Part shown: piece after piece, positions 24,001 to 60,843 of the stretch
Layout: each line of letters begins with the position of its first letter
Numbering within the stretch: position 1 is the stretch's first letter
Assembly (NCBI GenBank): GCA_964016885.1
Contig: OZ024758.1
Coordinates: 2,046,001 to 2,110,000 of the forward strand
DNA length: 64,000 nucleotides
DNA from: Eledone cirrhosa
Taxonomy: Eukaryota
Direction of reading: 5' to 3'
Made by a program: the position numbers and the translations under genes
Notes under the pieces: generated by a model
Seen by the model: only the letters and a program-made list of their open reading frames with translations
Database searches by the model: none
Told to the model about the DNA's origin: nothing

Positions 24001-24026
24001 ATACTCATCTTTTTTATTGTCGACAT
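1..24026 (-). CDS. RAD50: DNA repair protein RAD50, multi-exon gene; first ~855 codons in window, 3' part off the left edge
   Basis: 28 GT-AG exons join in frame. N-terminus [16 protein letters not shown], Walker [17 protein letters not shown]-loop [17 protein letters not shown], long coiled coil, zinc hook CCPLCHRGF near residue 684. Confidence 0.97.
451..514 (-). CDS. RAD50: RAD50 coding exon 27
   Basis: [20 protein letters not shown]. Confidence 0.85.
879..1032 (-). CDS. RAD50: RAD50 coding exon 26
   Basis: [51 protein letters not shown]. Confidence 0.9.
1364..1459 (-). CDS. RAD50: RAD50 coding exon 25
   Basis: [32 protein letters not shown]. Confidence 0.86.
1849..1962 (-). CDS. RAD50: RAD50 coding exon 24
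   Basis: [38 protein letters not shown]. Confidence 0.9.
2238..2628. repeat. Minisatellite, 26-28-bp unit
   Basis: TCTCCATACCATCTCTAAACTATTTATC tandem copies. Confidence 0.95.
2972..3107 (-). CDS. RAD50: RAD50 coding exon 23 (zinc hook)
   Basis: [45 protein letters not shown], CxxC hook. Confidence 0.95.
3442..3808 (-). mobile_element. RTE LINE 3' UTR fragment nearly identical to 20476-20832
   Basis: Direct comparison; (GAT)n tail. Confidence 0.85.
3869..3959 (-). CDS. RAD50: RAD50 coding exon 22
   Basis: [29 protein letters not shown]. Confidence 0.9.
4502..4536 (-). CDS. RAD50: RAD50 coding exon 21 (35-nt mini-exon)
   Basis: [11 protein letters not shown]; TTCAG acceptor, GTAAGT donor; needed to convert phase 2 to phase 1. 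Confidence 0.82.
4891..4983 (-). CDS. RAD50: RAD50 coding exon 20
   Basis: [30 protein letters not shown]. Confidence 0.86.
5446..5852 (+). mobile_element. RTE LINE 3' fragment (same family as 9226-9755)
   Basis: Nucleotide similarity to 9336-9755; (GAT)n tail. Confidence 0.82.
6014..6100 (-). CDS. RAD50: RAD50 coding exon 19
   Basis: [28 protein letters not shown]. Confidence 0.88.
6723..6821 (-). CDS. RAD50: RAD50 coding exon 18
   Basis: [32 protein letters not shown]. Confidence 0.86.
6930..7845. repeat. CA/CAC/GAT-rich simple and short tandem repeats flanking RAD50 exon 17
   Basis: ACACCACACA, ACACAGACATACTC and (GAT)n arrays. Confidence 0.9.
7194..7306 (-). CDS. RAD50: RAD50 coding exon 17
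   Basis: [37 protein letters not shown]; acceptor slightly uncertain. Confidence 0.8.
7882..7983 (-). CDS. RAD50: RAD50 coding exon 16
   Basis: [34 protein letters not shown]. Confidence 0.86.
9226..9755 (+). mobile_element. RTE LINE 3' fragment
   Basis: [30 protein letters not shown]...[12 protein letters not shown]; (GAT)n tail. Confidence 0.88.
9779..9883 (-). CDS. RAD50: RAD50 coding exon 15
   Basis: [35 protein letters not shown]. Confidence 0.88.
10398..10501 (-). CDS. RAD50: RAD50 coding exon 14
   Basis: [34 protein letters not shown]; the GTGCGT donor restores phase 0. Confidence 0.82.
11157..11226 (-). CDS. RAD50: RAD50 coding exon 13
   Basis: [23 protein letters not shown]. Confidence 0.85.
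11493..11594 (-). CDS. RAD50: RAD50 coding exon 12
   Basis: [34 protein letters not shown]. Confidence 0.88.
12308..12711. repeat. Minisatellite, 22-bp unit
   Basis: ACTGAAGAGCAGCCTGATATGT, about 18 near-perfect copies. Confidence 0.97.
12780..12856 (-). CDS. RAD50: RAD50 coding exon 11
   Basis: [26 protein letters not shown]. Confidence 0.87.
13750..13827 (-). CDS. RAD50: RAD50 coding exon 10
   Basis: [25 protein letters not shown]. Confidence 0.85.
13935..14235 (-). mobile_element. CR1/L2-type LINE 3' end fragment
   Basis: [20 protein letters not shown]...SFK, a typical CR1-group ORF2 C-terminus. Confidence 0.65.
14884..14944 (-). CDS. RAD50: RAD50 coding exon 9
   Basis: [20 protein letters not shown], phase 0 to 1. 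Confidence 0.85.
15067..15363. mobile_element. hAT-type MITE
   Basis: TIR CAGAGGTTCTCA / TGAGAACCTCTG; 8-bp TSD GATTAAAT. Confidence 0.85.
15454..15720 (-). mobile_element. RTE LINE 3' fragment
   Basis: [20 protein letters not shown]; same family, reverse orientation. Confidence 0.8.
16598..16687 (-). CDS. RAD50: RAD50 coding exon 8
   Basis: [30 protein letters not shown]. Confidence 0.88.
17050..17118 (-). CDS. RAD50: RAD50 coding exon 7
   Basis: [23 protein letters not shown], phase-consistent. Confidence 0.88.
18119..18224 (-). CDS. RAD50: RAD50 coding exon 6
   Basis: [35 protein letters not shown]. Confidence 0.94.
18303..18545. repeat. (GGT/AGT)n low-complexity repeat
   Basis: Seen directly. 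Confidence 0.9.
19074..19147 (-). CDS. RAD50: RAD50 coding exon 5 (Q-loop)
   Basis: [24 protein letters not shown](W). Confidence 0.94.
20218..20319 (-). CDS. RAD50: RAD50 coding exon 4
   Basis: [34 protein letters not shown]. Confidence 0.92.
20476..21378 (-). mobile_element. 5'-truncated RTE LINE (RT C-terminus, 3' UTR, (GAT)n tail)
   Basis: [20 protein letters not shown]...[12 protein letters not shown]...[10 protein letters not shown], open frame. Confidence 0.9.
21470..21920. repeat. Tandem repeat, ~29-41-bp CAGTATGGACTGGGTGTATATT-type units
   Basis: Seen directly; related to dispersed TTTACAGTGTGGGCTGGGTG repeats, e.g. 54670-54850. Confidence 0.85.
22036..22137 (-). CDS. RAD50: RAD50 coding exon 3
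   Basis: [34 protein letters not shown]. Confidence 0.93.
22947..23033 (-). CDS. RAD50: RAD50 coding exon 2
   Basis: [33 protein letters not shown] bounded. Confidence 0.95.
23734..23879. mobile_element. Mutator-like MITE (relative at ~50600-50872)
   Basis: ~35-bp imperfect TIRs (GTAGCCGGTCCCGGCAAAATAGAC / GTCTATTTTACCGGGACCGGCTAC), GG..CC ends, 9-bp TSD TAACTATTA. Confidence 0.75.
23898..24026 (-). CDS. RAD50: RAD50 coding exon 1 (start codon, Walker A)
   Basis: [43 protein letters not shown], 129 nt, GTGAGT donor; acceptor AG at 24044-24045. Confidence 0.95.
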
Positions 24027-24185
24027 TGTTACTCGGATGTGTTCTGAAAATAAATGAAATATCTGTTAATACTATATAGGAAGAAAACCCAACTAAAAGC
24101 GCGCCATTTGGAAAGTCAACCACTTGTGATATTTTAAAATTAATATATAAAGATTAAGAACAAAGTGAAACTATTCTAACCTACC

Positions 24186-24280
24186 TTTCAGATATGTTAT
24201 ATGCTCTATGTCACTATAGAAGAGGAAAACACAGAAACTTAACACGAGAAACTGTCGTTTCTATCCGTGTTCCAGCAACA
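24186..24280 (-). other. RAD50: Probable non-coding first exon (5' UTR) of RAD50
   Basis: AG|GTAGGT donor at 24185, upstream of the acceptor at 24044; 5' end is a guess. Confidence 0.45.
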
Positions 24281-25236
24281 AAAAGTCAACAATATTCAAA
24301 TAAATCGATAAAAGTTAGCTAAGTTCTTTTTTTTTTTTTTACTTAGCATTAACTAGTAAATGAATGGCAAAGATATTATTATGCCTGACAAAGTACTTTG
24401 GTAGTCACAACGATGTTAAAGATATGTTTGACAGCTATGGAGATTTATTTTAATTTTTCCCACGTGAAAAAAACATTTTCGTAAATACCAGAACCTTTTT
24501 CAAGGGAAATAACTCTGCCGTCCTAATGACAGTAATTAGATTCTCTCACGCACCTTTCATACAATATTAATGTTTGTAAACTATACAAGTATATATATAC
24601 ATATATATAGTTTGTAAACTATACATGAAGTATATATACAATACAACTGTATAATATACTCGTTTATTATTATGTTTTATTTTTTTACTTTATAAAAACC
24701 AGTATTCAGTAAGTGGTTAACCATATTCAGACTGGTTAGTACTTAGATGTGACACCGGTTGGAATGTATAGTAAAATGTCTCATACGTTATTGATTTCAA
24801 ATACTGTGGTTAATTGCATTAATTTCAATACTTAACTCTTTTGACTTCAAATAGCTACCAAATTATTTTGGTTTAAGTTAACTGTAGCCCTTCGCCGCAA
24901 AATGGAGCTACCGTTAGATGTATTCTTTGTCGAAGAGCCCTGCTTTCAATGTTTAGACTTAACTTTGCCTGTGCGAGTACGTTTCATTTCCTGTTAGAAC
25001 CAAAGCTTGTTTCTGTAAACAAAATTATTAAAACAACGAAATATTTCTTTCTTTCCTGATAGCTTACCGTGCTGTTATATGGGGAATATGTAGCTAACGC
25101 TGTTTCTTGTTGATTATGTCCAGGTCAGACTATGTTGTTTTTTTAATTCCGGTACAATTGGGCGAAGTCCGAGTCCATCAATTGACGGTCATCAACCTTA
25201 AGTATGGAATGATATCAAAAACATAATTAAAAAATC

Positions 25237-25835
25237 GGCACTGTCATGGTATTAGCTGTCAGAAGTGAAAGTAGAAGGTGACGTCATTCGTCAACCTTCT
25301 CAATGATTTATTTACGTATCACCACGCGTTTATTTACGTTTATGATTTCGAGAGAAACGATAATATACAATCTTATTTAACATGTGCATTAAAAACTACA
25401 CTAGCTGTTACAATTGTAATTAACGTGTAAGAACTTAAATGAAAATATAGGTGGCCCTTAAAAGGGCCGGTGTTGAACTTAAATTTGTTTTCTAATTTGA
25501 TAACCATGACTTGTTTGAACACCGGCCCTTTTAAGGGCCACCTATATTTTCATTTAAGTTAACTCCACTTTCATCGATATGCTTTATTGTTATCTAAGCT
25601 TTTACTTACACGTTAATTACAATTGTAACAGCTAGTGTAGTTTTTAATGCACATGTTAAATAAGATTGTATATTATCGTTTCTCTTGAAAATTACGTGGT
25701 TATTTGGTACCCATATTTTTTTTTTAATAAGTGTATCTCATCATAAACATAAATAAACGCGTGGTGATACGGAAATAAACGATTGAGAAGGTTGACGAAT
25801 ACTTCACTTCTGACAGCTAATACCATGTCAGTGCC
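25237..25835. mobile_element. Foldback non-autonomous DNA transposon (Merlin-like ends) containing histone-type stem-loops
   Basis: Arms of ~240 bp or more are inverted repeats, GGCACTG...CAGTGCC; 8-bp TSD AAAAAATC at 25229-36 and 25836-43. Confidence 0.8.
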
Positions 25836-26386
25836 AAAAAATCTAATTATATACTTTCGTTTTCGAACGTGTACTTAAGCTTTTTCAATATAAACGCACA
25901 CACATTATTCATTATATAAATTGTACTTCCATATTTAATAACAGTCAATCTGTAGGACAAGGGTTCACTAGTTATGCGTAAATTCCAATACTAAATCAAG
26001 TAGATCTATGATCCGACATTCCAGTCATGAACATCTGGTCTTTTATTCCGGAATATCGTTCAGTAGGACTACATTATTCAGTATGACCTTCTTTTTAAAA
26101 CGTTTTCATTTTAGGGGGCTTTGGTTGTTGTTTCTAGCATGCCTAAAGACAACATAAAATTCCTTTGTTGGCTCGTGACAAGGCCCCTAATTAATTTATA
26201 ATGGTATCCGATGCCAAGTTTAGTTTTCTTTTAATGTAATTTCCAATTGTCCAACCCAGAAAACAATTAAGTGAAAGAATTGCCAATTGTGAAAAAGAAA
26301 TTATAGTCTACTGAATTAACAAATTCAAAATAATCACCAATTAATATGAATGCGTAGAATAAAATAAAAAGAATGCGGTATCTTTC

Positions 26387-39996: not shown

Positions 39997-40441
39997 GGTT
40001 GTACTTCGGCATCTGACGACCAAGGTACTCTATGCTTGAAGTGCATAGCGAAGTATGCTAGTAAGACTGATGACTTTTTTGTCTCTGCTCTCAGACTTAC
40101 TGGCGTGCGTATCGCCATTCACTGTTGTCATCTGGTCCGGCAGAGGCGAGGGCTGTCACACATTGCATTCTCCTCTTGACCATGGTCGAGCCGGGTAGAT
40201 TTTGTTATAACCCACCCCTTGACTTTCTGGTCATGTAGGAGGTCGCAACACCTCAATTCTTGGACCCGGTGGCATAACTGACTACTTGTTGTGACCTTGT
40301 GTTTGTGTCTACTGCTAACATTTACTGCTGGGTCTCTGCCATGGTTTAGTCAACATCTACATTGTGTATGATCATCAGAATCAGCATTTTTCATGGAATA
40401 CTTCAAGTATTTTGATGCACTGCTTGTGATCCTGTACTGGA
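39997..40441 (+). other. Putative non-coding 5' UTR exon of DGCR8
   Basis: TTATTCAG acceptor and GTAAGT donor bound a GC-richer, structured island with no long ORF. Confidence 0.45.
40040..40123 (+). ncRNA. Candidate pri-miRNA-like / Microprocessor-substrate hairpin in putative DGCR8 5' UTR exon
   Basis: Stem about 31 positions long (AGTGCATAGCGAAGTATGCTAGTAAGACTGA / TCAGACTTACTGGCGTGCGTATCGCCATTCACT); UG at 40037-38; CATC (CNNC) at 40129-32. Confidence 0.55.
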
Positions 40442-42274
40442 GTAAGTATAAATGCTTTGTGAGTCAATGTTTAGTTAGAGCAGATGTTATGGGGTCTATC
40501 ATGTTTATGTAATGTTAAAATATTATTTTTGACCCCACTGTATCTGTAAAAACCTTTTGCAAATTTATTTTTATTTAATCATTTTTACTTTAGTTTTTTT
40601 TTTTTTTTTTTTCATTTAAATCATTTTAATGTTTTATTTTAATTTTTTTTTTTTATTTAGTTTGAGTTGGTGTTTTTCTATTGATATTTAATACACTTCT
40701 TTGAGAAACTTAAATTTTCTAATGAATAATACGTGAAATATAATTTTATATACCTGTTAATTATGAGAAAACCACCATAAGTATGTTAATTAAACTAGTT
40801 AGGGGATTGAAATTGTTACCTGTTGAAATGAACTAATTTAATGTGGAAAGTGATATAAGGCTAAACAATGTAAAATATGAACTAACAGAAAAGTAAGTTA
40901 CCTGGTAATCTTTTTTTTTTGTTGTTGTTTTTGTTGCTGTTTCTTTTGTCCTGATATTTTGGGACTTAAATTTCTTTATTTAATATAAATTTAATACCAA
41001 AGAGAAGAAACCAGTTTTCTCTGAAAGTCCATTATACTCTGATGAAAGGAATTTTAAGCCCTACAATATTAACAGAAAAAAAAGAACTGCAACAAAAAAA
41101 AAAACCCAAGATTTACCTCACATAATATCTCACATATTTACATTACTCTATATATACTATTATATTTTCACAGTAAAGGCTTTACCTCACATAATATCTC
41201 ACATAACATTTACATTACTCTATATATACTATTGTATTTTCATGGTAAAGGCTTTATTTCACATAATATTGAATCTATGAGATTTTGATATTATTTATTT
41301 TGGGAACATTACCTTAACATAAGTATGAAAAGCCAGTTTGAACTGAAAGAGGTAAGAGAATTCTGGTCAGATATGGCTGGTTTAAATGCTAAAGGGTTTA
41401 AAAGTTTTAGTGCAAAGAAAACTATAGTTATGGCAACGTTTTAATGAAATAAAAATATAGCTACTAGTGCTTTAGTTTGAAATAATATGGTTAAAGAATC
41501 AAATAATTGGAGGACTTTTGTAGTGAAATTGTAAACTTAAAATACTATAAAAGGTTTTAGTAATACCTATATAGGAGTTTATATAAATGTTCAACATGCC
41601 ACATTTAAATACTTTGCTGGTGTTAAAGTATATTTGCTCTGTTTTCAGATTTTCTCTGCTCGTAAATATATTTTGAAAGAACCAAATCCTGTTTTGACTA
41701 TAAACTTTGATTGGTATACTTTTAGAAATAATTCCAGGTTTTCTTTTCCTTGTCAATAATATATTATATATTGTGGACCACAAACAGTATTGACCTAGAA
41801 GTATACTATATATTGTGGACTACAAATATTTAGTATTTACCTAGAAATAGTCAATAATATATTGTAGACCACAAATACATTCTAAGTTCATATCTATACC
41901 GTCTTTCTTGCATGTCCTGACAGGGTCTCTAAAGTCCAAACTTACTTACTTTACTCCTACCCATTAAGCACCCCTACCTCCACCCATACTACTTCCTTCA
42001 CCTGACCCCGAGGCTGTCCAGATATACTTACCATTCTCGTTACATCACATTGCTCATATTGTTGATTGTATTTACTTTATCATTTTACTTCTTCACACCT
42101 TTCTCACCTGACTTAGGCATCACGCTTCTGTTACAAAATAATTGTCACAACATAGCCAGAAATTGTTTCGTTGTCAGTAAATAGCCAGCTGCTTAAACAC
42201 CTTATATATTTTTACAATTTTCTAGAAGCCAGTATATTAGTCCATCACTGCATTTGATCCACCAACACCTTTTA

Positions 42275-44906: not shown

Positions 44907-46207
44907 TTAATGACAGTGAAGTGCTTGAAGATTTGGAATTACTTTCCTTCTGCAGACAAAGTATTACACGTCAGTTTATCATTAGTAATAGATATTATTG
45001 ATGAAGGGTTGTGATTGAACAGAAAAATGATGGAAGTATGGAAAAGGTTCTTGATGCCAATATCTAATTCATGGATCAAATTTCAGAAGTGTATATTGAT
45101 TCTGTAGTTGATGGGACAGTAATGCTAAAAAAGAATCTATTGCTAACGTAACCTGAGAAGGTGCGTGGCCTAGTTGTAAGAGTGTTGGACTTACGATTAT
45201 AATGTGGGTTTGATTCCAGGGCTGGGTTGTGTTATTGAGTAAAACACTTCATTTCATGTTGCTCCAGTATACTCAGCTGAAAATGAGTACCAGTAATAGC
45301 TGGGGTTTTAACTCTGTGATGGACTGGTGTTCGGTCCAGGGTAAGTCTTGCACTCTCAGTTGCTTATCACCATGAAACCAGGATAAGCACTAGCCTAATG
45401 AGTATTCTTTTAGATATCATCAACTGCAGGTGTCTTTTAGATATGTGTTATTCTTGTATATTCTATAGATTCCACATAATGGTAAAAGTATAATAGCTTG
45501 ATATGAAATCTAATTTTGTGGTGCAATTAAAGGTAACAGATAAATTTAGTGAATATATGAGTGAAGCTGAGTTACGTTTGGATTATCTTCCAGGTGAGAA
45601 TATATTTAGTAACTATCGATATATTTAGTTATTACTATCGATTAGTCACTTCTATTGATATATTTAGTAACTACTATCGATATATTTAGTCACTATATTG
45701 ATTTATCATGATCTTTCAACTTTCTGAACTGATTGTAAAAACAATGGACTGATTGTTTTAGTATTCAAGTATCTACTATAACGAGGAGATGTATTGTAAA
45801 AAAATACAAGGGTTTTTTATGGTTATGAAAACGGAAAAGGAAGGGGCAGACAAGGGCTCTGGGGTCACAGAAGAATGGGGAGGGCAAAGGAAGTAGGTGG
45901 TGCGCTCTAGGCCAAGGGTGTGGCAGTATTGGGGCTGAGCCCTGCAGACAAGACTGCAGTTGCTCTTGAATTATCTAGTAATCTGTTTTTTTAAGATTTA
46001 CACCCTAGCATTATTAGAGTTGTAGCTTAATAGAGTGGAAATTAGTATTTAGCTTCATTTCACCAAATCTTGCTGTTACCCCTTCCTTGCATTTGAGGTT
46101 TCTACTTTTCCACATTCAATTTTACAGCATTTGAGGTGCTTCTAATACTACAGTGCTACTCTTTAATTTTTAGGCAGAATTTTATCTAAACTGTTTTCTT
46201 GCTGCAG

Positions 46208-46515
46208 ACCAGTATCATATGAACTCAGAGGAAAAGCCAATTAGGATATTTGCGAAATGATACCAACATTGCATGTAGCTTTCTCCTAGTTACCAGGACA
46301 AAGTGTGGAATAATAATTTCGGCTACTTTTCATAGTTGCCATTTGTTAAAACCCCAGAGACTGGTGGCTTGGTTAAATTTAACAAATGCCAAGCAATGGC
46401 TTCTTAGGTTTTAACAGTACCTTACAACTGCAGAACTGAAAGTATAATAGACTGCGAGTCACCTGCTATGAAGTCTCTCTATTCCAAAAACTCCTGACCC
46501 TTGTTCCTGCTCAAG
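46208..46515 (+). other. Putative non-coding 5' UTR exon of DGCR8 containing a long hairpin
   Basis: TTTTCTTGCTGCAG acceptor, AAG|GTAAGT donor, hairpin at 46343-46417. Confidence 0.45.
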
Positions 46516-47850: not shown

Positions 47851-48304
47851 TTATAATGGTTTGCTATTATAATTATACAATAACTTTTAAGGCTCTCACA
47901 TGAATTTCTGCTCAAAACCACAAATATCTGCTGAATTTTCAACAGTTGTCAACTATTTTTTAAAAACATTTTTATATGCATTCAATAAAATGTTTGATTT
48001 TTATTATCCTTGTATAAATTTTTAAAAGAAATTTGCAGTTTTATTTACTGTAAGCAATTGTTCACTTGCTATCTGTAGGTAGTTTCATGTGTGGTAAGGC
48101 TAATGTAAGGGCATCTCTCTTTCCAGATGAGGATTAATTTCTTTGACTAGTTAGCAAGAGAGAGGTGGCTGAGCAGGTCTGTCCGGGTTAACAGTCCAGC
48201 TCTTTAGAAGAGAAGCTGATAGCCAAGCTTGGCTCCTTTATTGCACAGGTCCACAGCTTTGGCTTGAGGCTATCTCAAATCTACAACACAAGTGATAAAC
48301 TGCA

Positions 48305-48866
48305 ATGGAAGAGCCTGGATCTCCATGCAATGCAGATGATGATGAAACGCAAAACAGCAATGATGAAAACTGTGAGAACCATTTGCTGCCACCATCAACG
48401 CAAACGTCCAATCTAACTAATAATAAAAGATTGTACTTTGACACTGATGATGGTAGAAAAAGCGACATAGACTATGGCTGTACTCCTGAAAAACGTCCAC
48501 TAATTTTGTCTCCCGTTTCTGGGGTCATTACCTGTGTTGAAACCTATTTAGACTGTGATCGAGAATCTAGACTTCCTAGTGGAGAACATTCTGCACAAAC
48601 TTCTCATGTGTTTGAAATCATAGACGATCTTGAACTGGATGATGATGGACTGGGCACTGATATAGGTGCTCGGAGTTATATTTCAAATGGTCGAGAATCA
48701 CTTGATCTTTCTAGTGACGATGATGATGATGAAGAATATTTGGATGACAATGAGGTCTATGCCTGGCTGGAAGAGGGGGTGGATTCCCGTAAATCTGGAT
48801 CCGATGGAGAAACAAAGGATGATGGATCGCAGGGGCCAATTGAAGTGCAAAAGATAGTTTTAAAAG
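48305..48866 (+). CDS. DGCR8: DGCR8 coding exon 1 (acidic N-terminus; exon begins at 48127)
   Basis: GCAATGG start; ends ...EVQKIVLK with G|GTAAAA donor; acceptor TTTCCAG at 48126. Confidence 0.88.
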
Positions 48867-51800
48867 GTAAAATATTATTGGATTTTTAAAAATTTGTATT
48901 ATTGTTTGTTTGTTCTTGTTAAACATTTTATTTATATCAATTCCTTTCTTAACATTTTTCACCGATATCATCGTATAACTGCATTATCAACACTTTAGTG
49001 AAAACATCAATTTTTAAACAGTTAATTCTTTCATTATCTACTATGATATCACATATATGAAAAAACTTGACTGTTAATTCTCTTCATCATTATCCTATAT
49101 TCCGAGATGGAAATGTTACCTATTATATGTATAAATTCATTTACCTTTAACGAGGCTTACAAATTACTTTTAATCTTGTGTCAAATTTCTTCTTGTAAAG
49201 AACTAAAACTTATTACTTGTAACCATAGTTCTGTCTTAATTGCAAATGTCTTGTGTATTCAGTATTCTTACCAAATCATTGATATCCTAGTAAAATGTGG
49301 TAGACTGAATTACAAATTCTATTGAACATGTAACTTTATTAAACTAAATAGATTTACTGCTTAACCCTTTAGCATTTACTAATTCTGACCGGATATGGTC
49401 TGTTTAAATGCTAAAGGGTTAAACTAAACAGATTTACTGGTTAATATTTAACAGGATTTTTTCTTTTTTCTATAAAATATATTATCTGTATTTCAGAGAG
49501 AGGCCATGATCCATTTGACATTCTACCAGAAGGTTGGATAATAGTAACTCATAACAGTGGCATGCCAGTATATTTGCACAAAGAATCCAGAGTATGTACT
49601 CTCTCCAAACCATACTTCTTGGGACCTGGTAGTGCCAGGGTAAGTGTGTACATGTATCATCATCGTTTAACGTCCATCTTCCACACTAGCTTGGGTTAGA
49701 CGGGATTTGCCCACTTGAGGCAAGATTGGTCGGGTGACTGTGTCTCGCTCGTATAGGACTCTGGCAGGTTTTCTACGGCTGGATGCCCTTCTTAACACCA
49801 TATATATGTGAGAGAGAGAAGACCCCCTTTGGTCACGAATGACCATAGGATTTGCACCTAGAATTATTTTAATTATTAAGATTGTATTTGTAACAACAAA
49901 AAAGTTTTATATAAAATTATCCTGGAAAGTCTTAAGAATCATTTAACATGGATGATTTTCATAGAACTAGAGGTGGTTTTGGGTGGGTTGGTGTTGAAAC
50001 AGGTAAAATTGTTTGCACCAATTTGAGGTAGAATAGAACTAGGGGCTCCCTTTTAAAGGAATGGTTTATCTTTTGTTAATAATTATATGTAATATTGTAT
50101 GCTGGCCTTCCACAAACAAATCTTACCCAGGCTCGTACCTTGGAAGGAAACTTTCTAAGTGCCAGACCATGGTGTGACCGATGGCAGCCTTTCATCAATA
50201 TTGCAGGTTAAAAATCTAAGTAGTTACTTTCTTTTTTTTTTTGCTAGAAACACGACATTCCTGTTAGTGCCATTCCTTGTCTTCATTATTCCCGGGAATT
50301 GGAAAAAGAAAGTCAACATGACAGTTCTAAAGATATGGATCCTTTATCTATCACTGAAGATCTTGAATGTACAGATAACCAGAATTCTGAGCAAGCTGAA
50401 GACACTGTTGAATCAGGTAAGGTTTTTCACAAGGACATTGAGTTTATATATATTTCATTGACAATATTTGAAGCAGCTTGTGACCTTGTTTTATCAATTG
50501 TTAAACTTGAATTGTTTTTATTTTCGTCTTAACTACTTTCCAATTTCTTCCTGTCTATTGACAGATATTTGTTAAAGAATAAATTTTAAGGAAATATAAT
50601 AAATAGGCTATGTAGCCGGTAAATGCTAAAGGAACGCAACACATCACTATAGCATTTCACCAGCCCCTTACTTCTGTTGTCTCTATCTGTTTATATATTT
50701 ACGTGTAGATGTGTGTGTAACTAAAGCGCAACGTATGTTACTAATGGACGACTAAATCATTTTAACTTGTCTTTTAACAATTTATGGTGGAAACGATTTC
50801 AAATTGTCTTTTCTTAACTCGGGCTGCAACTCATGGTGTCTGACACTCTTACCGGCTACATAGTCACTTCCAAAATATAACATGGTAGAGCGTCGGACAG
50901 CATGCTTTATAGCAGTCATGTCAGACTGAGGGTACCCCCGAGAGCCACATGGGTCAGGGTCACATAGTGTTGTCTGAGGGCCACACTTGACAACTAACTT
51001 TTTATTTTATATTATGAAGATAAAGCATACTTGCGCTGTAAAAACCTTTGTAAAGGGCCGCATGTTTGACATGCCTACTTTACAGCATAATTACATCCCT
51101 TAATGGTCTGAGTTCAAATCCTGCTGAGGTTACCTTTGCTTTTCATTCTTCCAGGGTTGATAAATCTACATTTAAAAGAAATGAAGTGTTCTGTAAGTGT
51201 TTATTGGTAAATTGTTCTGTTTCAGAGTTTCCAGCCACGAGTGAGAATGATAGTGATCAGTTGAATAATAACCAAGATGGTAATACTTGTCCTATGGGAG
51301 ATGTAGATGGTAATTCAAAGACTCCTGCAGTTAAGATTGAATGTGCTGAAGAAAGAAAAAAGGAAAATTCACTAGGTAATTATTATTATTATTATTAATG
51401 CTTATTAACACCTTTTGATATTATATTTCTGAAGACCGAATGTTGTTTATTATTATTTTTTTTTAATTTTTGGTTGTCAAAATTCGGGTGCGTCCTCGAG
51501 GACAAAGCGCCTTCATCTTCGGTAAATACTGTTCTCATTTAGTTTCTAATATTTAGGTATCTAGTAAATCAGACCAAAATTAACCCTTTAGCATTTAAAC
51601 TGGCCATATCCGGCTAGAATTCTCTCACCTCTTTCTTTCAAACCGGCTGCTTGTACTTATGTTAAGGTATTATTCTCAAAATAAATATCAAAATCTCATA
51701 GATTTGATATTATGTGAGATGATTATGTGAAATAAAGTGTTTACCATGAAAATATGGTAGTAAATATAGAGTAATGTAAATGCTAAAGGGTTATGGGATA

Positions 51801-54800
51801 ATTATTTTTATTATACTTAGGCTTGTTGCTGATTAAAATCATTGGCTTTTGATTTCAGATCCATTAGAACTGAGGAAGTATTGTGAAAAGAGATTTGAAT
51901 TCAAAAAAATTACAGTTAAAAAATTTAAGTAAGTAGTAAATTGCTGTTTAAAATCCAAGTACGTGATGGGATCAATAATTTAAGGTTGGGGGATTGGATA
52001 TTAAAAGGATATAGATTGAACTGTTGTGAGATATTGAAAGGATATAGATTGAACTGTTGTGAGATATTGAAAGGATATAGATTGAACTGTCGTGAGATTG
52101 GAGGGATATAGGTTGAACTGTTGTGAGATATTGGAAGGATATAGGTTGAATTGTTGTGAGATATTGGAAGGATATAGGTTGAACTGTTGTGAGATATTGG
52201 AAGGATATAGGTTGAACTGTTGTGAGATATTGAAAGGATATAGATTGAACTGTTGTGAGATATTGGAAGGATATAGGTTGAACTGTTGTGAGATATTGGA
52301 AGGATATAGGTTGAACTGTTGTGAGATATTGGAAGGATATAGGTTGAACTGTTGTGAGATATTGGAAGGATATAGATTGAACTGTTGTGAGATATTGGAG
52401 GGATATAGGTTGAACTGTTGTGAGATATTGGAAGGATATAGATTGAACTGTTGTGAGATATTGGAAGGATATAGGTTGAACTGTTGTGAGATATTGAAAG
52501 GATATAGATTGAACTGTTGTGAGATATTGGAAGGATATAGGTTGAACTGTTGTGAGATATTGGAAGGATATAGGTTGAACTGTTGTGAGATATTGGAAGG
52601 ATATAGGTTGAATTGTTGTGAGATATTGGAAGGATATAGGTTGAACTGTTGTGAGATATTGAAAGGATATAGATTGAACTGTTGTGAGATATTGGAAGGA
52701 TATAGATTGAATTGTTGTGAGATATTGGAAGGATATAGGTTGAACTGTTGTGAGATATTGGACTGATTCTTAGAAATCAACTTTATCATTGCCACTCCTT
52801 CGTGTAATTATATCTCTTACAGAACGTGGAAGGAAAGAAGACGTCACATGAGTTTAATGAAAAAACAGTCACGACCAGCTTTAGTAAGTAAATTTTATTG
52901 CATGTTTTTTTCAGGAAAGTCTGATGTAATTTACATTATTTTATTCCAGGTTTTCCATTGGATTGGATATATTTTCCTATTTGAATTACATAGTTCCCTA
53001 GGGTTGGTGATTTACACCATAGATACACTTCGTAGAGTAGAGAGGGCTCTCCAGTTGAGACAATGATAAACAACTTCTCTAGTGCTGGAACACAAAAATA
53101 CATCCAGTACAGTTAGAAAGATGGTTGGTTGGTTGGTTGGCAATGGGAAAGGCTCCCCTCTGTAGAAACTCCGCCAAAACGACTCTTCAGTGTCAATGGT
53201 GTGACAACCTCTCTAGTGTTGGTAACCTACATGATGTAAACACATCCACTACATGCTGTTAGGTGGTTGGTGATAGGAAGGGTTCCAGGCCATAGAAGGC
53301 TGGCCAAAGAAAGGGTTGTGGGGAGACCCTCTAGTTGTACCTAAGATATGACAACCTCTCTAGTATTGGAGATAGGAAGGGTACCCAGCCATAGAAGGCT
53401 GGCCAAACAAAGGGTTGGGAGGACCCTTCAGTTGTGTTAAAAATGACAACTTCTTTAGTTTGGTGATAGGAAAGGTATCCAGCCATAGGAAACCTGCCAA
53501 ACAATGGGTTGGTACGGACATGTGATGCACATGGATGCTGATCAATGAATGAAAAAGTACCAGGAAATCCCAGTGGATGGAAGCCACAGTAGAGGTAGAC
53601 CAAGAATGACCTAGGCAGAGGTGGTGAGAACTGACCTCAAATCACTGAGACTCAGAGGAGATATACAAAGGGGCGTGGAGGGATGCTGCACTTAGAAAGA
53701 CCCATCCAACGCATGCAACTCTGGAAAAACAGACGTAAAAACGATAATGATGAAGTTCATATAAGTGTTTGTGACAAAAAACATTCTTTTTATTAAATTT
53801 AAAGAATGGTTTTTTGTTTTCAAAACTAAGAAAATATATGGTATAGAAATTTGTGGTATGAGTATGGAAAATAAAACTTGAGTAACATGAAGTTTTAATG
53901 AATACTTTTGGTATTTATTTTTTTCTATTTACAGCCATCAAATACAAAACTAATAACTTGTCCTGTTCCTTCAAGCAAAGGTGATGATAAAGTAAATCGA
54001 CGTCGAGGTAAGCACTAAATATTCCAAGTTTTGTCTTTTCTAAAACACCATAGTTAGCATTCTGCTGTTATAAGTAAATATGAGAGATAGAGACTACGTA
54101 GAATGGAGAAGTTTAGGGCGCCCTCATACACAAACAATTAGAATACACAGCAAACCCCCCTCAATTTAACATATCAAAGTTAGCTTGGTACAAGTAATTG
54201 GAATTGAAAACTTATATACATATCATCATCATCTTCGTTTAACGTCCATCTTCCACGCTAGCATGGGTTAGACATATAGCTATTAAATTAAAAAATTCTA
54301 ACCATTCTAAAACTAAAAAGCCCAGCTGCGGGCACAAATATATTGCTACGGCCATTGTAGGTAGGGTTCCCCACACTGCAGGAGGTCCGGGGAAATTGCT
54401 CCCCTTAAATCTGGCCCTGAACGTAGGCAGTGACTTGCATTAAAAATATGTTAATAAGAAGGTTAAGGTGATTGTATTGTTCCACATAAATCTTGAATGT
54501 ATTGTCAGCTCTGCACATCATCATCATCATTTAATGACCATTTTCCACGCTAGCATGGGTTAGACAGGGTTGTCCCATTAGAGGCAAGTTGGGTTAGGTG
54601 ACTGTGTCTTGCTCATATAGAACGGTTTCTGGCTGGATTTCTATGGCGAGATGCCTTTCCTAATGCCAACCACATTTACAGTGTGTGTTGGGTACTTTTT
54701 GTTGTGACACCTACACAACCACTTTACAGTGTGGGCTGGGTGCTTTCTGTTGTGATACCTACACAACCACTTTACAGTGTGGGCTGGGTGTTTTCTGTTG

Positions 54801-57800
54801 TGATACCTACACAACCACTTTACAGTGTAGGCTGGGGGCTTTTTGTTGTGACATAAACCAATTTGAGTATTGATGTATGATAAACCAATTTGAGTATTGA
54901 TGTATGATTATTTTTTTGAATTTCAGAATTTGTATTAAACCCTAGTGGGAAGTCTTATGTATGTATACTTCATGAATATGTCCAACATACAATGCGGGTA
55001 CAACCACGATATATTTTTAGAGAAGTCGGTAAGTACTTGGGCTTTTTTATCCTTATTCTTGGCTTTTGTCATAATTATCCCTTTAGCATTTACATTAACA
55101 GTGGTAAGGGTGTTGGACTTAGAATCATAATGTTGTGGATTCGATTCCTGGGTTGCGTGTTGTGTTCTTGAACAAAATACTTATTTTCATGTTGCTCCAG
55201 TATACTCAGCTGAAAATGAGTACCATCAATAGCTGGGGGTTAACCCTGCGATGGACTGGCGTCCGGTCAAGGGGGAGTCTTGTACTCTGAGTTGTTTCAC
55301 GCCATGAAGCTGGGATAAGCCTCGGCCTAACGAGCCTTCTGGCTTAAGACAGACTTTAGATCTATATATATTATTGTATTTTTGTGGTAAAGGCTTTATC
55401 TTAAATAATTATCTCGCATAATATCGAATCTACGAGATTTTGATGTTATTTATTTATTTTGAGAACAATACCTTAACATCAGTATAAGTGGCCAGTTAGG
55501 GCTAGTTTGAACAGAAAGAGATGAGAGAATTCTGACCTGATACAACCAGTTTACATGCTAAAGGGTTAATGCTGTAAAATAAATGAAATGTAATGTGTTC
55601 TATTCCTTCTTAGTGTTGAATTCCATTAAATATTCTTTATTTCTATAGAAAATGCTCAAACTCCTTATAGTGCTACTATTGTGATAAATGATGTAGAGTA
55701 TGGTACAGGCTTTGCTGGAAGCAAGAAAGCTGCCAAAATGGAAGCAGGTGAGTTCACTCTAACAGTTCCAGTACTTTATATATACTATATATATACTATT
55801 GTATTTTCAAGGTAAAGGTTTTGTCTCATAATATCGAAGGTATGAGATTTTGATATTATTTATTTCAAATCCCGCTGAGGTTAACTTTGCCTTTCATCCT
55901 TACGGGGTTGATAAAATAAAGTACCAGTAATGCACTGGGGTACTTGCTGGCCTTGTGCCAAAAATAGAAACAATTATTTATTTTGAGAACAATATCTTAA
56001 CATCAGTATGAGTGGCTAGTTTAAACAGAAAGAGGTGAGAGAATTCTGGCTGGTTACGGCCAGTTTAAATGCTAAAAGTTTAACATTTATTTATATTTAC
56101 TTTGGTTGGACACGATTCTAAAATATCCTCTTTCCATTTCGATCACGTTCCTCAGTTGTTTACCTGAAAATCTGATTTGTTTTTTATTCTTGTTCCAGCG
56201 AAAGCAACATTGAAAGTGTTAATTCCTGAAATGAATAAGATGACAGAAGATAACAAAAGTTATGAATCTGAAGATCTGTCTGTAAGTAAATTCAAGTGTA
56301 ATAGATGATGATGATGACATTGTACTTGAGTATAAGACAGTCATGGGCAACCTGCGGCTCGCGAAGCTTTCTGAATGGCTCGCCTAAGTCACCTAAGTGA
56401 AATCTTTCTGGTATTTTTTACCCCAACTTTTCAGTCGTAATTTATCTTTCTATCATTTTTACGATCGAGGAAAACGTGTACGAATTCTGAAGAAACAAAT
56501 CAAAACAACCTGAGTTTCTGCCCTTTTTTTTAATGTGGGCACGAATGTAAATTACCGCTTATGGCCCGTCTGATGATGAGCCATATCCCATATAGCCCAC
56601 CTGATGATGAGCCATATCTCATGTGGCCCGCCTGATGATGAGCCATATCTCATGTGCCCCACTTCTTGAAAAAGGTTACCCATGCCTGGTATAAGACTCG
56701 AGCATCCTACAATGATTTCTCCTCTCTCTATCTCTCTTTTTAACGGTTCGTCCTAATATTACATTTTTTGAAGTCGTTTAACATCAAAAATTCTACTTTC
56801 AGTTTTTTGATGAAATAAAAATAGAAGATCCACGTGTCTATGAACTTTGTAATAAAGCTGGACAGCCGACACCTTATCAAATCCTATTAGAATGTCTTCG
56901 CAGGTTAGTATTGGGTTTCAGTGAGAGGAAAACTTTATTTTAAAGACATATTCTGGGGATGAGAGATAAATATTTCATTTATTGGTTTCTGATTTAGGCA
57001 CAAGCCCAACAATTTTGGGGGAAAGGGAAAGTCTCTTATCTCCTTCATTACATAACACACATATTAGATGAAAGTTTTGTCTCTTATCCTCATATCATTA
57101 CACACTTTAGATGAAAGTTTTATCTCCCTCATTATATTACACATATTAGATGAAAGTTTTATCTCCTTTATTATATTACACAAATTAGATGAAAGCTTTG
57201 TCTCCCTCATTGCATTACATATTAGATGAAAGCGATATCTCCTTCATATCATTACACATACATTAGAAAGTTTCATTGAGCTTTTCTGTAATGTTATATG
57301 TACTTGCTACATATTTTTTACTCTTTGATCTGTTGTACATAAAATATTTTTTCACAATGCCAAAAATTGGATAAGTTTACAAATTTGAATATTTGCATAA
57401 TAATTTAAATTGCTTCTGAATTATATTTGTGGTTAGAACGTAATTCTTCAATTGAAATCTTACCTATAGATGCTAAATTTGGTTTTGTAGTTTTAAGTTT
57501 TCATATGAACTTGTCTGACATTGTCTTTCTATATACAAGACTTCTTGTTTTTAGTTCTATTTAAATCAATGCCTTTCATTATAATTTAAAGTAAGAACCT
57601 TTTATGGAAGGACCTTTCATTTAAGAATATCTTGACCATTCTAGGAATTATGGCATGGGAGACACACAGTGTCAAATGGAAATGAAGACTCTGAAACATC
57701 AAAAAAGTGAATTTACTATGACTGTTGGAAAGCATAAAGCATCAGTAAGTTTAGTTTCTGTGTATTTAAGCAAACAGCCTCGTTACACTATGTGGTTTAG

Positions 57801-60800
57801 ATGACCCATCACCATCCTTTTACTCGGTGTGCAAATTAGCTGATGTATACTTTAGATCAGGGGCATGCAACAGGCAGCCCGCAGGCCACAGACTGGTCAG
57901 AGTGGCCCTTTTAATTTTTACCTTGTAGGCTTATTTAGAATTTTTTTCGTAACTGTAATACAATTTTATATATATATATATATATATATACATACATACA
58001 TACATACACACGTGTTTGAAATAGTGTCATATATATATATATATATGGTTGAATGTGTCATATATATACTGGAATGACTGCTTGGGTATTCAGCTGAAAC
58101 TCATCTTGTGAACTGTAGTTTGTCCTATATTGGGACTTAGGCAAGAGGTATATATCATCATTTTACATTTGCTTTTTCCTGCTTGCAAATGGGGGATGGG
58201 TGCTCTTCAGCACAGCATCTCTCTATTTGTTACAGTCCTTCATCTCCTCTGTGCTTCATCGATCTGAGATCAGCTCTTACAACCTCCAGCCATGTTTTTC
58301 ATGGTATATATATATCATCATCATCATCTTCGTTTAACGTCCATTTTCCACGCTAGCATGGGTTAGACTATATATATATATGTAAAAGGTAAACAGAAAT
58401 AACAACACAATCGGTACAGTATATGGAAGGGATATATTAGGTTAACGCTTGAAATAGCAGGAAGAGGGTCTTAACGTTTCGGAAAGAATGAGAAATAAGA
58501 TAGATTGAGGGGACGGGCAGGTTGGAATTGGAAAAAATATCTTTAGATAAAAATAACAGGTCCATTCACAAACGTGGTTGAATAAGTGTCATATACACAT
58601 GATTGATTGAATAAATGTTATATATATATGTGTGTGTGGTAGAATGTCTGGTAAAAACGGAAAGCACTCAATATAGATTTAAATGTATAAACAAGGAAGT
58701 AAATATGATTTAGGATTTATATTTTATATAACTCTATTAACATTTCTTACTAATTGAATTGTTATATCTCCATTAGGTTGTATGTAAAAATAAACGAGAA
58801 GGAAAACAACAAGCTGCCCAGGCTATCTTGCAGGTATGTCTCACAGGTTCTATTTCTTTAGAGGAATCACTTTCCTTTTTTTCATCAGTAATAAGTCATT
58901 TGTTTTTATTTCATTTTTAAAAGTTGATGCAAAACTTCTATCAAAATATATTTTATAAATATTACAGATGACAGCTGCCCCTCTTCATATCAACTTGTCA
59001 AATCCCACATCCACATCATTCTTGTCCATCTAAAATCCTTCTTCATAATCTCACTTCTAAACACATGTGCATTCCTTCTCCCAGGACAGAAAGGACCCTT
59101 TGGTCAAGTCAATGACCGACAACAACTCCTTCCTCATAATCTCACTTCTGAACACATGTACATTGGTGAAAATATTGACCTCGAATATAAGCTGGCGCCT
59201 CTCCACATCCTTACCATCAATTATTTTGTATCATATATTTCAGGACACCAGTCTATCGCAGGGTTAAACTCCCAGTTATATTCAAGTAGATAGTATAATT
59301 TAGTGTACTAGGAGTTATTTATATTGTACACCTGAGTAATCTCTCAAATATTTTTATTTAACCACAGATATTGAAATATTTTATGTATTTTTCTAGCGTC
59401 TCCATCCACATATTACCAGTTGGGGCTCTTTATTACGACTTTATGGTCGAATTTCATTCAAAATAATCCGAGAAAAGAAAGTAAGACCTTTTTTATTTTT
59501 CATATTTTATGTTTTTATAATTTTCTTAACCCTTCATCATTTACATTACTCCATATTTACTATTGTATCTTCATGGTAAAGGTTTTATCTCGCATGATTT
59601 TCTCACATAATATCAAATCTTTGAGATTTTGATGTTATTTATTTTGAGAACAACACCTTAACATCAGTATGGGTGTCCAATTACAGTCAGCTTGAACAGA
59701 AAGAGGTGAGGTTTTCTATTTAACATTTCTATCATTTGATCCAGTAATATATATTTCTTTACATTGTTCCCTGTCAGGAAGAAGAACAGAGTATTACCGA
59801 GTTACAGTCTCAGGCGAAGTCTAACAAACCTAATACTGCAGTGTTAGAGAAACTCAGAGAAGAAATGCGTAAAATTAAATTACAAAGGGTCAGTATTTTT
59901 AGAATTCTCAAAATATTTGGTTTTGTTTGAAATTCACTTTTATAACGGCTTCTTATCTATGTCTATTAATTAGTGATAACTTTATTTAAAGTACCAGTAA
60001 TGCACTAGGATAATTGCTGGCCTTGTGCCAAAAGTTGAAACAATTATTACATACAAGGGCGGTGGATTAGTTACGGCTCTTTGAGGTCTGAGTTCAAATC
60101 CCGTCGAGGTCTACTTTGCCTTTTATCCTTACGGAGTCGATAAAATAAAGCACCAGTAATGCACTGGGGTAATTGCTGGCCTTGTGCCAAAAATAGAAAT
60201 AATACTGGTAGTGTCAAACACCATGCTTTGCGGCATAGAGTTGCGGCCCTTTACGTTCTGAGTTCAAATCATGTCGGGGTTAGCTTTGCCTTTCATCCTT
60301 ATGAGGCCGATAAATAAAGCACCAGTAATGTACTGGGGTCAATTGAATCAACTTTCCCCTTCTATTCAAATTGCTGTCCTTGTGCCTATAGCCGAAACAA
60401 TTATTACATCCATTAGTAATACACATGATGTCAGCTATGAATATATATTAGAGCTTCATTGCCAGATACACTGTTGCCATCTTTCTTACTATATTCGTCA
60501 AAGCATGGCGTCTGACTCTCTACCGATACTGCCAATCCCGCCTTATCAGCCTAATCCCGTAGGATTATCAGCTTATTCCTACATTGGTATTATGTATAAA
60601 ATAATATGTAGGAATAAGCTGATAATCCATTTCTACACTGCAATGCCAACTTTATCTTCCACAAAACATCTACCATTTCTATATAACTCAGAGTGTGATG
60701 GAGTTGCATGGCATCCTCAAATGTTTTTCTTCTTTTTGTTAATTAAAATCTGTTTTCTTTTGCAGGAATCCATCAAATCAAGAGGGAAGTTGAGACTCGA

Positions 60801-60843
60801 ATCAGCCGTTCCTGTAGGAAATGTGTCAGGACTTGATCTCTGA
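48305..60843 (+). CDS. DGCR8: Microprocessor complex subunit DGCR8 / Pasha, 16 coding exons, ~680 aa
   Basis: Exons join in frame (2043 nt). WW motif [34 protein letters not shown]; heme-ligand motif IPCLHY; dsRBD1 [13 protein letters not shown]...[14 protein letters not shown]; dsRBD2 [14 protein letters not shown]...[33 protein letters not shown]; C-terminal [16 protein letters not shown]. Confidence 0.97.
49497..49639 (+). CDS. DGCR8: DGCR8 coding exon 2 (WW motif)
   Basis: [47 protein letters not shown]. Confidence 0.96.
50248..50416 (+). CDS. DGCR8: DGCR8 coding exon 3 (heme-ligand Cys)
   Basis: [23 protein letters not shown]... Confidence 0.94.
51226..51375 (+). CDS. DGCR8: DGCR8 coding exon 4
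   Basis: FPATSENDS...[16 protein letters not shown]. Confidence 0.9.
51584..51790. mobile_element. piggyBac-type MITE (~210 bp). At least 15 full or partial copies, e.g. 110-437, 6430-6668, 9976-10388, 10700-10976, 11280-11436, 19338-19565, 41115-41400, 43628-43767, 55077-55569, 55780-56083, 59527-59710, 63590-63887
   Basis: TIR CCCTTTAGCATTTA ... TAAATGCTAAAGGG flanked by TTAA target sites. Confidence 0.8.
51859..51928 (+). CDS. DGCR8: DGCR8 coding exon 5
   Basis: [22 protein letters not shown]. Confidence 0.93.
52003..52761. repeat. Minisatellite, 33-bp unit, in DGCR8 intron
   Basis: GAAGGATATAGGTTGAACTGTTGTGAGATATTG, about 23 copies. Confidence 0.97.
52823..52883 (+). CDS. DGCR8: DGCR8 coding exon 6
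   Basis: [20 protein letters not shown]. Confidence 0.92.
53935..54007 (+). CDS. DGCR8: DGCR8 coding exon 7
   Basis: [24 protein letters not shown]. Confidence 0.92.
54927..55028 (+). CDS. DGCR8: DGCR8 coding exon 8 (dsRBD1 start)
   Basis: [33 protein letters not shown]. Confidence 0.95.
55100..55358 (+). mobile_element. tRNA-derived SINE with CORE/Meta-like domain, nested in a piggyBac-type MITE (relatives at 45159-45405, 62411-62690)
   Basis: tRNA-like head, GTTGTGTTCTTGAACAAAATACTT...ACTCAGCTGAAAATGAGTACC, CCCTGCGATGGACTGGCGTCC. Confidence 0.7.
55649..55747 (+). CDS. DGCR8: DGCR8 coding exon 9
   Basis: [32 protein letters not shown]. Confidence 0.95.
56199..56281 (+). CDS. DGCR8: DGCR8 coding exon 10
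   Basis: [27 protein letters not shown]. Confidence 0.93.
56338..56688. mobile_element. hAT-type MITE
   Basis: TIR CAGTCATGGGCAACCT / AGGTTACCCATGCCTG; 8-bp TSD GTATAAGA; three internal ~31-bp subterminal repeats. Confidence 0.88.
56803..56903 (+). CDS. DGCR8: DGCR8 coding exon 11
   Basis: [33 protein letters not shown]. Confidence 0.95.
57035..57275. repeat. Degenerate ~38-bp tandem repeat
   Basis: ATTAGATGAAAGTTTTATCTCCCTCATTATATTACAC-like units. Confidence 0.8.
57645..57744 (+). CDS. DGCR8: DGCR8 coding exon 12 (dsRBD2)
   Basis: [33 protein letters not shown]. Confidence 0.94.
58777..58833 (+). CDS. DGCR8: DGCR8 coding exon 13
   Basis: [19 protein letters not shown]. Confidence 0.94.
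59397..59480 (+). CDS. DGCR8: DGCR8 coding exon 14
   Basis: [28 protein letters not shown]. Confidence 0.95.
59778..59888 (+). CDS. DGCR8: DGCR8 coding exon 15 (C-terminal tail)
   Basis: [37 protein letters not shown]. Confidence 0.94.
60766..60843 (+). CDS. DGCR8: DGCR8 terminal coding exon
   Basis: Strong TTTTGCAG acceptor, [25 protein letters not shown] then TGA. Confidence 0.85.
   Translation, partial: ESIKSRGKLRLESAVPVGNVSGLDL

What the first reader, a model, noticed from the sequence alone, without database searches (positions are those of the whole stretch)
40037..40132. Pri-miRNA-like hairpin with basal UG and CNNC at the expected spacing
Seen: 40040-40070 pairs with 40091-40123. 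The upper stem GTATGCTAGTAAGACTGA/TCAGACTTACTGGCGTGC pairs at 17 of 18 positions counting G-U. The lower stem AGTGCATAGCGA/TCGCCATTCACT pairs at 10 of 12. The apical region is 20 nt. UG at 40037-38 would sit at -14/-13 for a 5' cut at 40051, and CATC at 40129 lies ~15-17 nt after the matching 3' cut. Established: these are Microprocessor recognition motifs. I do not recognise either arm as a known miRNA family.
Basis: partly seen in the sequence, partly recalled or inferred. Interest (0 to 1): 0.75.

Follow-up and report, generated by a model that had tools for sequence, protein, structure and literature searches.

The report
Octopus DGCR8 self-limiting RNA hairpins
The hairpin lies just upstream of an octopus-type gene for DGCR8, a core part of the machine that cuts out microRNAs, and is likely one of the hairpins that this machine would cut to limit its own supply; a second hairpin in the same gene is conserved in molluscs and insects and is probably the same element as vertebrate mir-1306, which is listed as arising only in jawed vertebrates.

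Summary
The hairpin (H1, 40040-40123) is real, single-copy and rarer than chance: 3 of 1443 shuffles and 0 loci in 400 kb of neighbouring strand sequence pass the same geometry + UG + CNNC test. It lies on the sense strand 8.2 kb upstream of the start codon of this octopod genome's DGCR8/Pasha gene (CDS 48305-60843), inside a splice-site-bounded candidate 5' UTR exon. Best reading: a cis-acting Microprocessor target in DGCR8's own mRNA, the feedback loop known from mammals and flies, rather than a stand-alone miRNA. Three more sense-strand hairpins sit in the gene's 5' part. One (H4, codons 26-52) covaries across 5 other invertebrate DGCR8 loci, is non-coding in three insect-like ones, and weakly matches Rfam mir-1306 at the same place as in human DGCR8, although MirGeneDB dates MIR-1306 to Gnathostomata. 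Against: no reads; H1 has no detectable homologue; CNNC is at +15; CmR and UGUG motifs are absent; and an upstream hairpin (40000-40045) is predicted to take H1's basal strand (2.7-4.1 kcal/mol). MirGeneDB's octopus entries could not be checked.

The parts
40040..40123 (+). H1: the pri-miRNA-like hairpin of the finding (31-nt 5' arm, 20-nt loop, 33-nt 3' arm); predicted Drosha register 40051/40114, 64-nt product
40037..40038 (+). basal UG at -14/-13 for a cut before 40051
40129..40132 (+). CNNC (CATC), +15 from the 3' cut after 40114
40000..40045 (+). competing hairpin predicted to take H1's basal 5' strand (z -3.1; favoured by 2.7-4.1 kcal/mol)
39879..40441 (+). candidate DGCR8 5' UTR exon carrying H1 (acceptor rank 1 of 659, donor rank 12 of 719; GC 0.43 against 0.29/0.26 in flanks); a weaker donor after 40060 lies inside H1's 5' arm
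   Evidence: inferred, no transcript seen
46208..46515 (+). second candidate 5' UTR exon (acceptor rank 9, donor rank 1), single copy
   Evidence: inferred
46343..46417 (+). H2: shorter hairpin (about 31-nt arms, 14-nt loop, z -3.7 to -4.2)
48205..48283 (+). H3: irregular hairpin ending 22 nt before the ATG (z -3.2)
48382..48459 (+). H4: conserved, covarying hairpin in codons 26-52; probable orthologue of the vertebrate mir-1306 hairpin
48305..60843 (+). DGCR8/Pasha coding sequence, 16 exons, 680 aa, 615 identities to the 684-aa Argonauta hians DGCR8; single locus
36100..37500 (+). fall from CpG-normal (o/e about 0.9-1.05) to CpG-depleted (0.08) DNA: likely start of the DGCR8 gene body, upstream of H1
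   Evidence: reading as a gene-body methylation footprint is recalled knowledge

Best explanation
The hairpin lies on the sense strand in the 5' region of an octopod DGCR8/Pasha gene and is likely a cis-acting Microprocessor target in a probable 5' UTR exon, so that Drosha-DGCR8 would cut DGCR8's own transcript and limit its own level. Shown: the hairpin, its motifs, the DGCR8 gene downstream, and a conserved covarying hairpin (H4) just after the start codon. Inferred: that 39879-40441 is spliced into the DGCR8 mRNA; that Drosha cuts near 40051/40114; that the cut uncaps and destabilises the mRNA; that H1 plays the part of human mir-3618 (the better substrate, 'helper') for the short H4 (mir-1306-like, 'recipient'), which splicing would bring to 621-929 nt. 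The competing hairpin 40000-40045 would make H1 a damped rather than an efficient substrate.
For: DGCR8 identity. H1 is inside the CpG-depleted body upstream of the ATG, and RAD50, the divergent neighbour, starts at about 24026 on the - strand. Splice sites scored with a matrix from the gene's own 15 introns rank 1 of 659 and 12 of 719 around a GC-rich block. H1 is the most stable of 3 loci in the window with geometry + UG + CNNC; 0 in 400 kb of neighbouring strand sequence. Four of the top 8 of 20 hairpin loci by z-score are sense-strand hairpins in this gene's 5' part. H4: -21.7 against -9.2 +/- 3.0 kcal/mol for synonymous recodings, 0 of 2000, rank 1 of 73 CDS windows; cuttlefish amino-acid changes keep or strengthen the fold (p 0.007-0.035); homologues in 5 of 46 invertebrate DGCR8 loci, 92.4% of cells paired, 6 of 22 pairs with double changes. 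L029 has a UG + CNNC hairpin 339 nt upstream of its H4 copy, its only sense-strand hit; L044 and L027 have strong hairpins 472 and 158 nt upstream. The loop and the two-hairpin layout are published for mammals and flies.
Against: No RNA data: exon use, cleavage and small RNAs are untested. H1 has no detectable homologue in 46 loci or among the upstream hairpins of 4 loci. Basal-stem pairs have probability 0.00-0.06 in most long contexts (0.61 in one of seven fragments), full lower stem 1-6% of the ensemble. CNNC at +15; CmR, bulged GWG and apical UGUG absent. The top exon candidate by splice score alone (44956-45340) carries no such hairpin and no GC contrast, so scores do not prove exon use. 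The exon has 13 upstream ATGs. In human both hairpins share the ATG exon; here the positional twin of mir-3618 is H3, not H1. Upstream hairpins also appear on the - strand of L027, L030, L040 and L044, and L040 has none on the + strand. Argonauta substitutions in H4 were no better than random (p 0.55-0.72).
Confidence: 0.62

Rival explanations
1. H1 is transcribed with DGCR8 but is not cut: the upstream hairpin keeps its basal stem open, leaving a 22-bp stem that is an ordinary UTR structure or a chance fold, and the feedback runs through H3/H4 in the ATG exon.
For: The competitor wins by 2.7-4.1 kcal/mol and forms first during transcription; motifs only partly in register; no homologue found; H3 and H4 flank the ATG as mir-3618 and mir-1306 do.
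Against: A 2-4 kcal/mol gap is small for folds of 190-560 nt and flips with the fragment end (0.61); geometry + UG + CNNC arises in 3 of 1443 shuffles; H3 is irregular and has no UG in any of 10 registers.
Confidence: 0.22
2. H1 is a canonical octopod miRNA gene hosted in the DGCR8 transcript, exported, diced and acting in trans, possibly one of the 90 novel families of the octopus study.
For: A 64-nt product fits molluscan pre-miRNAs (<80 nt); a 5p arm starting with A and a 3p arm starting with U would fit a 3p-mature pattern; coleoids gained many new families.
Against: No Rfam match; no arm match in papers or in the supplements that could be read; published DGCR8 hairpins give little mature miRNA. 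This reading and the best one do not exclude each other.
Confidence: 0.11
3. H1 belongs to a separate non-coding transcript or to untranscribed DNA upstream of DGCR8, and the neighbourhood is a coincidence.
For: 8.2 kb from the ATG; no transcript evidence; the start site is inferred from CpG content only.
Against: Strong acceptor and donor in the DGCR8 orientation; no AATAAA/ATTAAA in 39879-40600; CpG-depleted DNA runs from about 37500 into the gene.
Confidence: 0.05

Closest known systems
Vertebrate DGCR8 feedback hairpins mir-3618 (5' UTR) and mir-1306 (CDS) (passages of PMC2736397, 10.1101/2025.09.09.675111, 10.1101/2025.09.23.678008; Han 2009 not read)
   Same: Pri-miRNA-like hairpin upstream of the DGCR8 ATG plus a suboptimal hairpin just after it; H4 lies 77-155 nt after the ATG (human about 120 nt) and shares 40 of 56 aligned arm positions with the Rfam mir-1306 consensus (my count on the alignment).
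   Different: H1 is in a separate candidate exon 8 kb upstream, shows no Rfam match, has a predicted competitor, and four hairpins are spread over three candidate exons rather than two in one exon.
Drosophila pasha 5' UTR hairpins dme_422 and dme_474 (passages of 10.1101/125997 and PMC5749182)
   Same: Hairpins in the 5' UTR of a protostome Pasha; one deeply conserved, one lineage-restricted, which parallels H4 and H1. The insect-like loci L027, L030 and L040 carry H4 as non-coding sequence.
   Different: Cleavage is shown in flies, not here. The dme_422 sequence could not be retrieved, so its relation to H4 is open.
Canonical miRNA genes as curated in MirGeneDB (PMC11701709 section 9; PMC9699675 sections 6, 35)
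   Same: Stem length, 64-nt product, basal UG, a CNNC.
   Different: No reads; CmR, GWG and UGUG motifs absent; host is DGCR8.

Membership tests
DGCR8/Pasha feedback hairpin | lies on the sense strand in the 5' region of the DGCR8/Pasha gene | tested here: met
DGCR8/Pasha feedback hairpin | is part of the DGCR8 transcript (exonic) | tested here: inconclusive
   splice-site ranks, GC contrast and CpG footprint support it; no reads
DGCR8/Pasha feedback hairpin | pri-miRNA-like stem of about 33-35 bp with a lower stem | tested here: inconclusive
   met in isolation; basal part displaced in most longer contexts
DGCR8/Pasha feedback hairpin | second, suboptimal hairpin near the start codon | tested here: met
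   H4
DGCR8/Pasha feedback hairpin | Drosha-dependent cleavage and mRNA destabilisation | not testable with these tools
   needs knock-down, degradome or an in vitro assay
canonical miRNA (MirGeneDB criteria) | reads of both 20-27-nt arms with 2-nt offsets | not tested
   no read data obtained
canonical miRNA (MirGeneDB criteria) | basal UG at -14/-13 | tested here: met
   register 40051/40114
canonical miRNA (MirGeneDB criteria) | CNNC 16-18 nt after the 3' cut (spacing recalled) | tested here: inconclusive
   +15 in the UG register, +17 only without UG
canonical miRNA (MirGeneDB criteria) | CmR/mGHG, bulged GWG, apical UGUG (optional motifs) | tested here: not met
   -5 U, +5 U, -6/+4 paired, loop starts UGAC (definitions)
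canonical miRNA (MirGeneDB criteria) | conserved in a second species | tested here: inconclusive
   no cephalopod DNA available; no homologue in 46 distant loci
MIR-1306 (RF01014), for H4 | score above Rfam's gathering cut-off (70 bits) | tested here: not met
   17.2 bits, E 0.68; L029 29.5 bits, E 0.031; no hit in L027, L030 (E<=1), L040, L044 (E<=5); mir-367 scored higher on H4 (25 bits)
MIR-1306 (RF01014), for H4 | orthologous position: DGCR8, sense strand, just after the ATG | tested here: met
   L029 and L044 likewise
MIR-1306 (RF01014), for H4 | conserved RNA structure independent of coding | tested here: met
   covariation; in-frame stops in L027, L030, L040
MIR-1306 (RF01014), for H4 | yields a mature miRNA | not testable with these tools
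   no reads

The most novel reading that the evidence does not exclude
Microprocessor self-control is one ancestral bilaterian RNA module, not convergence: the mir-1306 hairpin is a cis-element kept since the protostome-deuterostome split (inside the coding sequence in vertebrates, molluscs and ticks, non-coding in insects) and served by a replaceable helper hairpin. In octopods the helper is H1, moved to an upstream exon and gated by a competing fold and an internal splice donor, so that RNA folding and splicing set DGCR8 and hence global miRNA dosage in the invertebrate lineage with the largest miRNA gain. I put the mir-1306 homology alone at about 0.8.
Probability: 0.3. Interest if true: 0.8.

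Novelty: new member of a known kind. Interest (0 to 1): 0.62.

Why it matters
It would extend the Drosha-DGCR8 feedback loop, described in the passages read only for vertebrates and Drosophila, to a cephalopod, and give exact sites to test. The by-product may matter more: a 2025 paper states that the two-hairpin layout is conserved between mammals and flies but the hairpins are not, and MirGeneDB 3.0 dates MIR-1306 to Gnathostomata. A covarying mir-1306-like hairpin in molluscan and insect DGCR8 genes suggests common ancestry and makes 'homology or convergence' answerable with public genomes.

Tried and rejected
Coding role for 39860-40520: stops in all six frames, no DGCR8 homology upstream of 48305. 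Repeat origin: one genomic match, one match in 264 kb held. Known RNA family: no Rfam hit above noise for H1 or H2; hammerhead and SECIS cores rejected by eye. A permissive hairpin scan (263 loci, output cut) and an unverified pairing scan (191 loci) were too loose and were replaced. A search for more cephalopod N-termini returned only one known cluster. The first coding exon has no PDB match. A clade of related loci (L004, L005, L008, L010, L017, L024, L035, L037) has a diverged N-terminus, no H4 hit and no clear upstream hairpin in the two blocks folded. Pairwise scores of H1 against five upstream hairpins were not significant. Energy-parameter swaps gave identical values, so I do not count them as a robustness test. 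Earlier scan findings held nothing relevant. The dme_422 sequence was not found.

Full report
Observation. The pairing, loop and motifs are at the stated coordinates: 17 of 18 and 10 of 12 pairs, 20-nt loop, TG 40037-38, CATC 40129-32. The + strand folds significantly (z -4.37 for 40038-40125), the - strand does not. The 201 nt around it match once in the 3.0-Gb genome and no Rfam family. I wrote a test (lower stem at least 8 pairs, upper at least 16, in-register 2-nt overhang, dG at most -25, UG at -14/-13, CNNC at +15 to +19; thresholds set after seeing the hairpin). Three loci in the window pass, this one the most stable (-33.4); 3 of 1443 shuffles of the surrounding block pass (65 of 1443 without motifs); 0 loci pass in 399,600 strand-bases from 20 neighbouring stretches. 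A cut at 40051 pairs with a cut after 40114, so CNNC is at +15; CmR, GWG and UGUG (definitions) are absent. In longer contexts a hairpin at 40000-40045 takes the basal 5' strand: gap 2.7-4.1 kcal/mol, full lower stem 1-6% of the ensemble when the fragment starts at or before 40000 and 56-69% when it starts later. The upper 22 pairs stay at 0.9-1.0.

Context. An exon at 49497-49639 matches human DGCR8 in the PDB (E 4e-17) and is identical over 47 residues to Argonauta and Octopus bimaculoides DGCR8, so the genome is octopod-like. The full CDS is 48305-60843, 16 exons, 680 aa, no internal stop, one locus in the genome. RAD50 starts at about 24026 on the other strand (motif recalled). CpG o/e is 0.9-1.05 from 24001 to 36100 outside a retroelement and 0.08 at 37501-39879, which I read, from recalled knowledge of invertebrate gene-body methylation, as a start site near 36 kb. 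With a matrix from the gene's own 15 introns, the acceptor at 39879 ranks 1 of 659 and the donor at 40441 ranks 12 of 719; the block between has GC 0.43 against 0.29 and 0.26 and ties for second of 127 exon candidates. The top candidate (44956-45340) has no GC contrast, so these scores do not prove splicing. No read data were obtained.

More hairpins. Of 20 filtered hairpin loci in the window, 4 of the top 8 by z-score are sense-strand hairpins in this gene's 5' part: H1, H2 (46343-46417, in a second candidate exon), H3 (48205-48283) and H4 (48382-48459). H4 lies in codons 26-52. It is far more stable than synonymous recodings (0 of 2000; rank 1 of 73 windows), and the cuttlefish substitutions keep the fold (-28.7 against -14.5 +/- 4.8 for random changes, p 0.007-0.013; core only 0.02-0.035); O. 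bimaculoides (p 0.12-0.22) and Argonauta (0.55-0.72) changes were uninformative. H4 has DNA homologues in 5 of 46, all sense and 5' of the WW exon: L029 (77% over 66 nt), L027, L030, L040, L044; many of the other loci are too short upstream, but a clade of about 8 that includes the ATG shows none. By protein similarity L027 is termite-like, L030 ant-like, L040 insect-like, L029 mollusc-like, L044 uncertain. In L027, L030 and L040 the element has in-frame stops. Across 6 sequences 92.4% of cells pair, 6 of 22 pairs change on both sides, 0 of 500 shuffles reach the covariation score (26 of 500 for the pair count); the structure came from these same sequences. A loose pattern for the encoded peptide matches 34 of 129 fetched proteins, including ticks, a spider, a nemertean, scallops and oysters. 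Rfam mir-1306 matches H4 at 17.2 bits (E 0.68 over 4227 families, about 2e-4 for the one family) and L029 at 29.5 bits (E 0.031), far below the cut-off of 70, with no hit in the other four; mir-367 scores higher on H4, so the case rests on score plus identical gene, strand and position.

Mechanism. [quoted passage not shown] Han 2009 and Smibert 2011 were not read; Kadener 2009 is not held. By analogy H1 is the best-formed substrate of the four and would sit 621-929 nt from H4 after splicing. L029 shows the same layout with a UG + CNNC hairpin 339 nt upstream of H4, but H1 shares no detectable sequence with it. Confidence 0.62; the main rival (0.22) is that H1 is masked and H3/H4 do the work.

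Novelty. For H1: a new member of a known kind. A squid miRNA table (PMC8125070, first two places per term only) showed no match. Searches (listings only, except the papers named) showed no report of a lophotrochozoan DGCR8 hairpin or an invertebrate mir-1306; subscription journals are mostly not covered. MirGeneDB 3.0 (PMC11701709: passages, section 9, supplement row) assigns MIR-1306 to Gnathostomata (PMC8728216 passage). Interest 0.62, carried partly by H4.

Noticed in passing
window 48382-48459; L029:1593-1672, L027:3839-3921, L030:8560-8653, L040:885-975, L044:2636-2715: A conserved, covarying hairpin in the DGCR8/Pasha 5' region of molluscs and insects, probably orthologous to vertebrate mir-1306; coding in some lineages, non-coding in three insect-like loci.
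   Followed up: yes
window 40058-40066: A plausible splice donor (score 6.3, rank 20 of 719) lies inside H1's 5' arm; using it would remove most of the hairpin from the mRNA, and pairing would mask it.
   Followed up: partly
window 25429-25473 (-), 25519-25564 (+), partial copies near 28650 and 28740: Two Rfam histone 3' stem-loop matches in an inverted duplication with no histone coding sequence found beside them.
   Followed up: partly
window 26387-26458 (-), 27796-27908 (-): Two tRNA genes (CUG anticodon; a Leu-type with an intron) between the divergent RAD50 and DGCR8 genes.
   Followed up: no
window about 24026 (-) down to below 3000: RAD50 gene on the minus strand (zinc hook at about 3000; N-terminal exon).
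   Followed up: partly
window 60562-60628: Near-perfect 67-nt inverted repeat in the last DGCR8 intron (about -36 kcal/mol, folds on both strands).
   Followed up: no
L008, L010, L022, L037, between the DGCR8 start and the WW exon: Internal repeats of about 200 nt in the long 5' block of DGCR8 in a clade of related unnamed loci whose N-terminus lacks H4.
   Followed up: no
L030:6200-7000: A run of four very stable sense-strand hairpins (-32 to -51 kcal/mol) 1.6-2.3 kb upstream of the H4 copy in an ant-like locus; they fold on both strands and may be mobile inverted repeats.
   Followed up: no
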